Assembly: GCA_964016885.1 (NCBI GenBank)
Contig: OZ024741.1
Span: 363,196,001-363,260,000 of the forward strand
Origin: Eledone cirrhosa
Lineage: Eukaryota
Direction of reading: 5' to 3'
DNA length: 64,000 bases
The position numbers and the translations under genes are program-made. Under the pieces are notes generated by a model. That model had not been told where the DNA came from and did no database searches. It saw nothing but the letters and a program-made list of their open reading frames with translations. Below, one piece after another: positions 4,448 through 5,056 of this stretch (within the stretch, counting starts at the first letter, position 1; each line of letters begins with the position of its first letter).

Positions 4448-4454
<7 letters not shown>

Positions 4455-5056
4455 CAATATGTTCAAAAGGTAACACACTAGAGAGAGATAGTGCGCCATG
4501 AATAAAACAGGGGAAAACCACCAGTGTATGGAATCTATAACCTATGGAAGGCAGGATAAACACACAATAATTAAAAATATAAATTAAAATATATATACGC
4601 ACCTCTATAACACACGCATACAAATCCAAATAGATCTGTTTCGCCAGGAAGTTGTTGACTGAAATGGAATAGCCTATGGTTCATCAGTGTGTGCAAGGCT
4701 ATACATTTCAGACAACTCTAAGAGAATCTAAAGCGACCGTCCAGCTACATGTGACAGAGAGATGTCACAGTGTGTTTAGAGCAGTGAACCAGTGGTATCT
4801 GAGGGACGAGCTGCTAGAAAGGGCAGCCCCAAAACCCCTCAGAGAAGTGTGCTCAACCAAACAGAGAGAGAGGAAAGACTTATAAGGAGCGAAATATCAC
4901 AATAAATTAACAGCCATAGACTCGTTATTCCCTGTCAATAATGTACTCAAAGGAAAAGGAATCCTGAGCTCTTTAAAATACAATATGTTGAAAAGGTAAC
5001 GCACTAGAGAGCGATAGTGCGCCATCATTTTATTGATGCCGCACTCTCTCTCTCTT
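4448..5056 (-). mobile_element. Non-coding Penelope-pLTR/retrozyme-like module
   Basis: 52-bp direct repeat at 4448-4499 and 4974-5025 (period 526), internal hammerhead, small fold-back at ~5007-5055. Confidence 0.6.
4613..4693 (-). ncRNA. Type I hammerhead ribozyme
   Basis: Minus strand CACACA CTGATGA ACCA...TGGC GAA ACAGATCTA TT TGGATTTGT A TGCGTG; long stem III; one mismatch each in stems I and II. Confidence 0.75.

What the first reader, a model, noticed from the sequence alone, without database searches (positions are those of the whole stretch)
4448..5056. Retrozyme-like 526-bp unit: terminal redundancy, one hammerhead and a 5' fold-back
Seen: a 52-bp direct repeat 526 bp apart, a minus-strand hammerhead with an unusually long stem III (4613-4693), no ORF, and a 20-bp imperfect inversion at the presumed 5' end. 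Inference: about 1.1 turns of reverse transcription around a ~526-nt circular or tandem RNA, i.e. a non-autonomous ribozyme retroelement probably mobilised by a Penelope-like RT.
Basis: partly seen in the sequence, partly recalled or inferred. Interest (0 to 1): 0.75.

Follow-up and report, generated by a model that had tools for sequence, protein, structure and literature searches.

The report
Pseudoknotted hammerhead retrozyme, two priming sites
This is one copy of a roughly 537-base non-coding repeat found hundreds of times in TA microsatellites of an animal genome; it carries a predicted self-cutting hammerhead RNA with a predicted pseudoknot brace and is likely pasted in by Penelope-type retrotransposon enzymes that would start copying at two fixed points, one per cut DNA end, which makes it a variant of a known kind of genomic parasite.

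Summary
In detail: 52-bp direct repeat 526 bp apart, minus-strand type I hammerhead, no conserved ORF, 28-nt fold-back. It is one 1.1-unit copy of a dispersed ~537-bp family (160 exact 24-mer hits; 1,234 hammerhead cores with its sister subfamilies). The 'terminal redundancy' is not a fixed LTR: copies start at one of two fixed sites 84 nt apart, next to (TA)n, and stop at scattered points up to ~1.6 units. Two-armed insertions pair one site with the other in 37 of 38 family loci and 25 of 25 sister loci: the Penelope 'tail' footprint. No family copy (0 of 60 examined) is continuous with a coding Penelope element; the parent was not found. The hammerhead lacks G10.1-C11.1, has a 2-3-bp stem II, a 7-bp stem III and a covarying pseudoknot (up to ~15 bp) between loop II and the 5' flank. 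Cleavage and circles are untested; no RNA run was listed and copy ends do not pile up at the cut. This copy has one ribozyme, so could not excise a circle. The scan noted similar families, pseudoknots and the site-pairing rule before on other DNA. Verdict: variant of known animal non-LTR retrozymes.

The parts
4424..4449 (.). (TA)13 target microsatellite abutting the priming end
   Evidence: 126 of 144 arms that start at site A or B abut TA repeats
4448..5027 (-). Direct arm, 580 nt = 1.1 units of the repeat; RNA sense is the minus strand
4448..4452 (-). Start site A (inferred reverse-transcription start; RNA 3' end of this copy)
   Evidence: 75 of 191 arms in 101 loci begin here
4448..4499 (.). 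First copy of the 52-bp direct repeat
4612..4694 (-). Type I hammerhead: stem I 4694-4688/4618-4612, core 4687-4681, stem II 2-3 bp with A10.1-C11.1 mismatch, GAAA 4642-4639, stem III 7 bp, predicted cut 4619/4618
4659..4675 (-). Loop II strands of the predicted pseudoknot (4675-4669 and 4666-4659)
4696..4711 (-). 5'-flank strands of the predicted pseudoknot (4711-4704 and 4702-4696)
4894..4973 (-). 'Tail' between start site B (4894) and the next site A; 84 nt in the family, 80 here
   Evidence: 69 of 191 arms begin at site B
4974..5025 (.). Second copy of the 52-bp direct repeat (start of the second turn)
5028..5055 (+). 28-nt inverted segment: stump of a second arm or a local fold-back; the rest of that arm is not in the window

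Best explanation
The stretch is one 5'-truncated copy of a dispersed, non-coding ~537-bp repeat family with a predicted type I hammerhead ribozyme, likely mobilised in trans by an endonuclease-bearing Penelope-like element (Neptune type most likely). Inferred steps: (1) a copy holding two hammerheads is transcribed on the strand that is minus here; (2) the two ribozymes, braced by a loop II/5'-flank pseudoknot, cut out a unit-length RNA that is ligated to a circle; (3) a PLE protein, probably as a dimer, binds the region 170-260 nt 3' of the cut, cleaves both strands of a (TA)n tract and primes cDNA from both DNA ends, one at site A and one at site B, 84 nt apart; (4) each cDNA stops at a scattered point, so one arm may run past one turn (here 1.1) and the two are joined head to head. 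Shown: family structure, fixed paired starts, TA targets, absence of attached ORF, covariation. Inferred: cleavage, circle, dimer, identity of the enzyme. This copy has one hammerhead with a stem I mismatch and would be a dead end for circle production.
For: 3,055 and 3,554 first-look candidates, 40 scored each at 88-94%; 160 exact 24-mer hits, control 0; 1,234 hammerhead cores of this architecture, control 1. 144 of 191 arms in 101 loci start at A or B, 126 of those 144 beside TA. Head-to-head pairs are A+B in 37 of 38 (P 1.4e-10 against 50%) and 25 of 25 sister loci with both ends assignable (14 more had one unassignable end). Sister subfamilies at 68-90% identity keep both sites and a 504-592 period, mostly 532-545. 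110 of 144 arms read through at least one cut site and 13 through two, which fits a circle or an uncut tandem and not a cut linear monomer. Successive turns in one arm share 32% of derived letters and inverted arms 31%, against 8% for random copies. Pseudoknot: 5 of 12 tested pairs change on both sides, 86-93% of cells paired in 46 sequences; flank-loop duplex averages -14.3 kcal/mol for own partner, -6.4 to -8.6 between the largest clade and the two other main clades, -6.1 shuffled. The genome holds many RT + C-terminal GIY-YIG elements (10,597 candidates), some ending in (TA)n with the same layout of hammerhead-like motif then end sites (read by eye). Two RT start sites that define the tail, with both DNA strands cut and extended, were shown in vitro for a Poseidon PLE (PMC11167929).
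Against: No autonomous element homologous to the unit was found in 50 GIY-YIG loci or 30 further Neptune-like loci. Copy ends do not pile up at the cut: 2 of 144 within 4 nt; 2 ends in 467 nt at risk for the bin holding the cut, so there is no genomic trace of cleavage. G10.1-C11.1 is missing in most copies (A-C 115, A-U 33, G-C 5, G-U 1 of 154 motifs, duplicates not removed). No copy of two full units or more and no long array was seen (longest ~850 nt), unlike classic tandem retrozymes. In the PAc PLE, ribozyme cleavage was not needed for insertion in vitro; 8 of 9 tested Xenopus retrozyme dimers did not cleave. Some two-armed loci share few or no derived letters between arms (L152 0 shared over 444 columns, L093 0 over 317), so two RNA molecules or two events occur as well. 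Covariation counts sequences, not events; it rests on a few clade splits.
Confidence: 0.8

Rival explanations
1. Same non-autonomous PLE-dependent element, but the template is an uncut linear transcript of a partial tandem; the hammerhead is slow or protein-dependent and no circle is needed.
For: No excess of ends at the cut; no arm longer than ~1.6 units; A10.1-C11.1 mismatch; uncut RNA was the main substrate for PAc in vitro (PMC11167929).
Against: Arms end at roughly 0.3-1.9 per 100 nt with no wall, so short arms are expected either way; a lineage that is always 5'-truncated needs a step that restores length, which a circle gives (inference); core and pseudoknot are conserved across clades ~70% alike.
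Confidence: 0.3
2. The unit is the pseudo-LTR of a rare coding PLE that carries tandem pLTRs, and all copies seen are short truncations of it.
For: Layout (hammerhead, ~170 nt, start site, tail, second start site) matches PLE pLTRs (PMC11167929). Only part of the genome's PLE families was sampled. One sister copy (L223) is fused directly to a decayed Neptune-like RT fragment.
Against: 0 of 60 hammerhead-chosen loci are continuous with an ORF; 6 hold PLE fragments nearby, five of them over 1 kb or otherwise apart and one beyond a (TA)n run. After site B the sequence wraps into the same unit in every long arm. The L223 junction is in mid-RT, and its PLE family shows no homology to the unit apart from one separate insertion.
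Confidence: 0.07
3. A SINE-like element mobilised by an ordinary LINE (RTE-type LINEs flank it in this window), or a DNA-level satellite.
For: AP-endonuclease/RT LINE frames surround the locus.
Against: Two internal start sites, paired across head-to-head arms, with wrap-around and TA targeting are PLE features (PMC8557442); no poly(A) or LINE-like 3' tail; copies are dispersed, not arrayed.
Confidence: 0.03

Closest known systems
Animal non-LTR retrozymes (Cervera and de la Pena 2020, PMC7229834; Li, Clavereau and Pollet 2026 preprint 10.64898/2026.07.22.740005)
   Same: Non-coding, low-GC repeat with a type I hammerhead in each unit; head-to-tail organisation; unit length within the 51-972 bp range of the preprint; co-occurs with PLEs, which both papers propose as mobilisers.
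   Different: Mostly dispersed sub-dimer copies (longest seen ~1.6 units) rather than arrays; hammerhead with 2-3-bp stem II, no G10.1-C11.1, 7-bp stem III and a long predicted pseudoknot; circles not tested; neither text I read describes paired start sites or an octopus-like host (PMC7229834 has 0 occurrences of 'octopus' or 'cephalopod'; the preprint sampled 31 vertebrates, 3 insects, 1 coral).
EN+ Penelope-like elements and their non-autonomous derivatives (Craig et al. 2021, PMC8557442; Frangieh et al. 2024, PMC11167929)
   Same: Partial tandems, inverted 5'-truncated arm, tail at one end only, microsatellite/AT-rich targets, two internal RT start sites 3' of a hammerhead; non-autonomous forms are described for Chlamys.
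   Different: No ORF; tail 84 nt instead of 30-40; no sequence-similar autonomous partner found; the near-exclusive one-site-per-arm pairing is counted here, whereas the in vitro study saw no difference in start site between strands.
Pseudoknot-stabilised hammerheads (Perreault et al. 2011, PMC3088659; Zhan et al. 2024, PMC11300833)
   Same: Base-paired contact between the stem II loop and the stem I side replaces loop-loop contacts; very short stem II tolerated.
   Different: Published pseudoknots in the passages read are about 4-6 bp; here two helices of up to 7 and 8 bp. In the 2024 crystal structure the pseudoknot replaces helix II, a different connectivity. Activity untested here.

Membership tests
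Animal non-LTR retrozyme | Type I hammerhead in each unit | tested here: met
   Core invariant in 46 aligned copies, stems I and III 92% paired; no Rfam hit; 10.1-11.1 pair non-canonical.
Animal non-LTR retrozyme | No protein-coding capacity | tested here: met
   Longest stop-to-stop frames 47-109 aa in 30 copies; frame from the AUG in the core has median 51 aa (n=63) and 26 aa in sisters (n=91), core span varies 46-51 nt.
Animal non-LTR retrozyme | Head-to-tail repeats with at least two hammerheads in some copies | tested here: met
   13 of 144 arms cross two cut sites; this copy has one. No array of two full units or more was seen.
Animal non-LTR retrozyme | Self-cleavage of the RNA | not testable with these tools
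   Needs in vitro transcription; genomic proxy (ends at the cut) inconclusive.
Animal non-LTR retrozyme | Unit-length circular RNA in cells | not testable with these tools
   No RNA holder listed.
Animal non-LTR retrozyme | Target-site duplication longer than 4 bp when present | tested here: inconclusive
   Both ends lie in (TA)n, where a duplication cannot be read.
Non-autonomous PLE derivative | Partial tandem plus inverted 5'-truncated arm | tested here: met
   38 head-to-head loci with both starts assigned among 101; 39 among 73 sister loci.
Non-autonomous PLE derivative | Two fixed start sites giving a tail at one end | tested here: met
   Sites A and B 84 nt apart; A+B in 37 of 38 and 25 of 25. 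Longer than the published 30-40 bp.
Non-autonomous PLE derivative | Microsatellite / AT-rich target | tested here: met
   126 of 144 A/B starts beside TA, against 16 of 47 other starts.
Non-autonomous PLE derivative | Sequence similarity to the pLTR of an autonomous family | tested here: inconclusive
   None found in 80 PLE loci with a profile of 25 natural arms; only 150 of 10,597 GIY-YIG candidates were scored and 50 fetched.
Coding PLE (ordinary pLTR) | RT + GIY-YIG ORF continuous with the repeat | tested here: not met
   0 of 60 loci; neighbours checked are separated by (TA)n; one mid-RT fusion in a sister subfamily (L223).
Pseudoknot-stabilised hammerhead | Watson-Crick pairing between loop II and the stem I side, kept by compensatory changes | tested here: met
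   5 of 12 pairs change on both sides; own-partner duplex stronger than cross-clade.
Pseudoknot-stabilised hammerhead | Pseudoknot needed for fast cleavage | not testable with these tools
   Needs disrupt-and-restore mutants in vitro; the helix could instead slow cleavage.

The most novel reading that the evidence does not exclude
A long-lived lineage of circular ribozyme RNAs uses a hammerhead of a new build, in which a ~15-bp two-part pseudoknot replaces the G10.1-C11.1 pair and most of stem II, and is copied by a PLE dimer that always starts one DNA end at site A and the other at site B of the same circle; the 84-nt region between them would be a small, ready substrate for solving how Penelope elements integrate.
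Probability: 0.35. Interest if true: 0.7.

Novelty: new variant of a known kind. Interest (0 to 1): 0.45.

Why it matters
The origin of the tandem and inverted ends of Penelope-like insertions is described as an open mechanistic question (PMC8557442). This family gives a countable rule (one start site per arm in 62 of 63 scorable insertions) and a 537-nt RNA on which to test double-ended priming by a PLE dimer. It also supports, from insertion anatomy rather than co-occurrence, the proposal that animal retrozymes ride PLE enzymes, and it offers a natural hammerhead variant with a long covarying pseudoknot. The locus itself is an ordinary decayed copy in a repeat-only window.

Tried and rejected
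Rfam: no hammerhead hit in the stretch; the 150 listed of 262 window-wide hits were microRNA-family chance matches on TA repeats. Expression: no RNA holder listed; three contig sets of one sample, of unrecorded library type, hold the family but cannot show circles or ends. Coding idea (frame from the AUG in the core): rejected, not conserved. Autonomous parent: not found by blastn or nhmmer in 50 GIY-YIG loci or 30 loci of the family fused at L223; the 68-nt match in L035 and those in L263, L247, L238, L137 are separate insertions in (TA)n; the pair of hits 3.8 kb apart (L081) holds no PLE ORF. A direct genome-wide search for two hammerheads one unit apart could not be run; pairs were read from listed hits instead (2 same-strand pairs in the 100 listed of 160), so the number of dimers and arrays is not fully known. 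First version of the shared-variant test had a phase error in second turns and was discarded in favour. Excess of copy ends at or just past the cut: not seen; the 161-170 bin has 10 ends, 3 of them low-complexity artefacts, and the rest lie at a short palindrome. Reading the flank/loop II helix as an anti-ribozyme switch was considered; it shares no bases with the core or the conserved stem II pairs, so an activating pseudoknot is preferred, but this is untested. The whole-stretch fold z of -7.3 is inflated by the repeat and fold-back; a single natural unit gives -2.45.

Full report
Observation. The window stretch holds a 52-nt direct repeat at 4448-4499 and 4974-5025, 94% identical, 526 apart, directly right of (TA)13 at 4424-4449. 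The minus strand reads as a type I hammerhead: stem I 4694-4688 with 4618-4612 (one mismatch in this copy), CUGAUGA at 4687-4681, GAAA at 4642-4639, a 7-bp stem III, and GUA with the predicted cut between 4619 and 4618. Rfam does not call it. A 28-nt inverted segment follows at 5028-5055. The window around it is made of microsatellites and LINE fragments. The genome is 3.0 Gb in 1,796 contigs; flanking repeats look octopus-like, which is my recall and agrees with earlier scan notes, not a result of a call.

Family. A search of the own genome gave 3,055 first-look candidates, 40 scored, at 88-91% over 550-580 nt. An exact 24-mer from the ribozyme occurs 160 times, control 0. A looser core pattern occurs 1,234 times, control 1, and brings in sister subfamilies 68-90% alike. 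The 30 best copies are 92.9% identical on average and 2.4-7.3% from the column majority; this copy is 4.3% away. The unit is 537 nt in a near-majority copy.

Anatomy of copies. I mapped 101 distinct loci: the 30 best, 60 taken from the 100 listed of 160 hits (57 in list order, 3 picked because hits were paired), and 11 new of the 30 (19 dropped as duplicates). Of 191 arms, 75 start at site A (4448 here), 69 at site B (4894 here, 84 nt further in the family) and 47 elsewhere; 126 of the 144 A/B starts abut TA repeats against 16 of 47 others. The other end is scattered; in arms not forced by my selection it falls at about 0-2 per 100 nt with no wall (174 loci, 245 arms). The longest arms are ~850 nt (one of 902 includes expanded AG runs); 110 of 144 read through a cut site and 13 through two. 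So the 52-bp redundancy here is where copying stopped after 1.1 turns. The samples are biased to long and ribozyme-bearing copies.

Paired starts. Where two arms meet head to head and both starts can be assigned, they are A+B in 37 of 38 loci (1 AA) and in 25 of 25 among 73 sister loci (7 duplicates dropped; 14 more had one unassignable end). Against a 50% expectation P is 1.4e-10 and 3e-8. [quoted passage not shown] Successive turns within an arm share 32% of derived letters (74 pairs, 50 loci) and inverted arms 31% (98 pairs, 55 loci), against 8% for random copies; some loci share most (L013, L100), some none (L152, L093), so one template is common but not universal, and later gene conversion is not excluded. 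In the window copy only a 28-nt stump of the inverted arm is present.

Not an ordinary pLTR. None of 60 loci, fetched with ~5 kb on the RNA-upstream side for most, has a PLE frame continuous with the unit; 6 hold PLE fragments nearby. Close neighbours that I read are beyond (TA)n runs or downstream of the start site. One sister copy, L223, is fused without TA to the middle of a decayed Neptune-like RT, which may be a template switch and is one locus only. The genome is rich in RT + C-terminal GIY-YIG elements with a CxxxxCxxC linker, i.e. Neptune-type by the definition in PMC8557442; by eye several end in (TA)n with a minimal hammerhead-like motif ~130-170 nt upstream. None of 80 such loci is homologous to the unit beyond separate insertions. 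Neptune is therefore the likeliest, not the shown, mobiliser; Naiads also prefer (TA)n and occur in Octopus.

The ribozyme. In 46 copies across subfamilies (80% mean column identity) the core is invariant. Stems I and III are 92% paired; stem II keeps only two invariant C-G pairs, closed by A-C in 38 and A-U in 8, whereas G10.1-C11.1 is highly conserved in canonical and PLE hammerheads (PMC4209133, part 1 of 4 and passages). Loop II pairs with the flank 5' of stem I in two helices; 5 of the 12 pairs tested change on both sides, none of 500 shuffles reaches the covariation score, and slid controls fall to 21-47% paired. These counts reflect few independent events, and relatedness inflates the shuffle test. 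An alignment-free check agrees: flank with its own loop -14.3 kcal/mol, largest clade against the two other main clades -6.4 to -8.6, shuffled loops -6.1; this copy scores -21.9. The helix uses no core base, begins 1-2 nt after stem II and leaves an 11-13-nt linker, so I read it as a pseudoknot brace like those shown to be needed for fast cleavage in other hammerheads (PMC3088659, passages; a different pseudoknot connectivity is solved in PMC11300833, part 1 of 6). It may instead regulate cleavage. There is no genomic sign of cutting: 2 of 144 arms end within 4 nt of the cut (one search agrees).

Mechanism. Most likely a two-ribozyme copy yields a unit-length circle; a PLE dimer cuts (TA)n and primes both ends, one at A and one at B; each cDNA stops at random and they join head to head. 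Reading through cut sites excludes a cut linear monomer without jumps; circle versus uncut tandem transcript is not resolved (about 60:40 by my judgement, the circle favoured because it restores length in a lineage that is always truncated). This copy holds one ribozyme and could not release a circle.

Known and new. The kind is published: animal non-LTR retrozymes with circular RNAs in coral, mussel and axolotl (PMC7229834, passages and section 14) and their proposed PLE origin (preprint 10.64898/2026.07.22.740005, parts 1-3 of 5). In seven searches (listings only) I saw no paper on this family, on an octopus retrozyme, or on a counted one-site-per-arm rule; the library lacks most subscription papers, and I did not see supplements (those of PMC8557442 and PMC7229834 may list cephalopod or mollusc elements and folds). 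A look-up by sequence found no earlier scan note on this family; look-ups by words found notes on similar families, pseudoknots and paired starts on other DNA. My paired-start and pseudoknot tests were run; two of those notes report an excess of copies at the cut in other families, which I do not see here.

Verdict. Real feature, first reading supported, new variant of a known kind, interest 0.45.

Noticed in passing
window 449-3785 and 6008-8575: Two young LINE copies with endonuclease/RT frames (RTE-like by recall), 98.5% identical over 2,571 nt, face each other around the element.
   Followed up: partly
window 3781-3990: Short fragment 87% identical to the 3' untranslated region of a Neptune-like PLE family (L061, L062).
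   Followed up: partly
window 5062-5182: Fragment of a very high-copy SINE-like repeat (5078-5172) between 18-nt direct repeats, right after the fold-back.
   Followed up: no
L062:6010-6919: Unrelated 459-bp unit in two full turns, each with a hammerhead motif with a long stem II, flanked by (TA)n: another retrozyme-like family.
   Followed up: no
L071:6718-8001: Tandem ~480-510-bp repeat with hammerhead motifs 511 bp apart.
   Followed up: no
L061:2150-3080, L073:2450-3150, L063:5770-6180: Coding Neptune-like families carry hammerhead-like motifs read by eye with a U at position 3 (U3-A8 in L061) and minimal stem III; L063 has an open 1,096-aa RT/endonuclease frame.
   Followed up: partly
L223:600-1804: Sister unit fused directly to the middle of a decayed Neptune-like RT, possibly a template switch between parasite and host-element RNA.
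   Followed up: partly
L081:2631-7017: Two near-identical inverted copies of a rearranged unit 3.4 kb apart with no PLE ORF between; looks like a DNA-level inverted duplication.
   Followed up: partly
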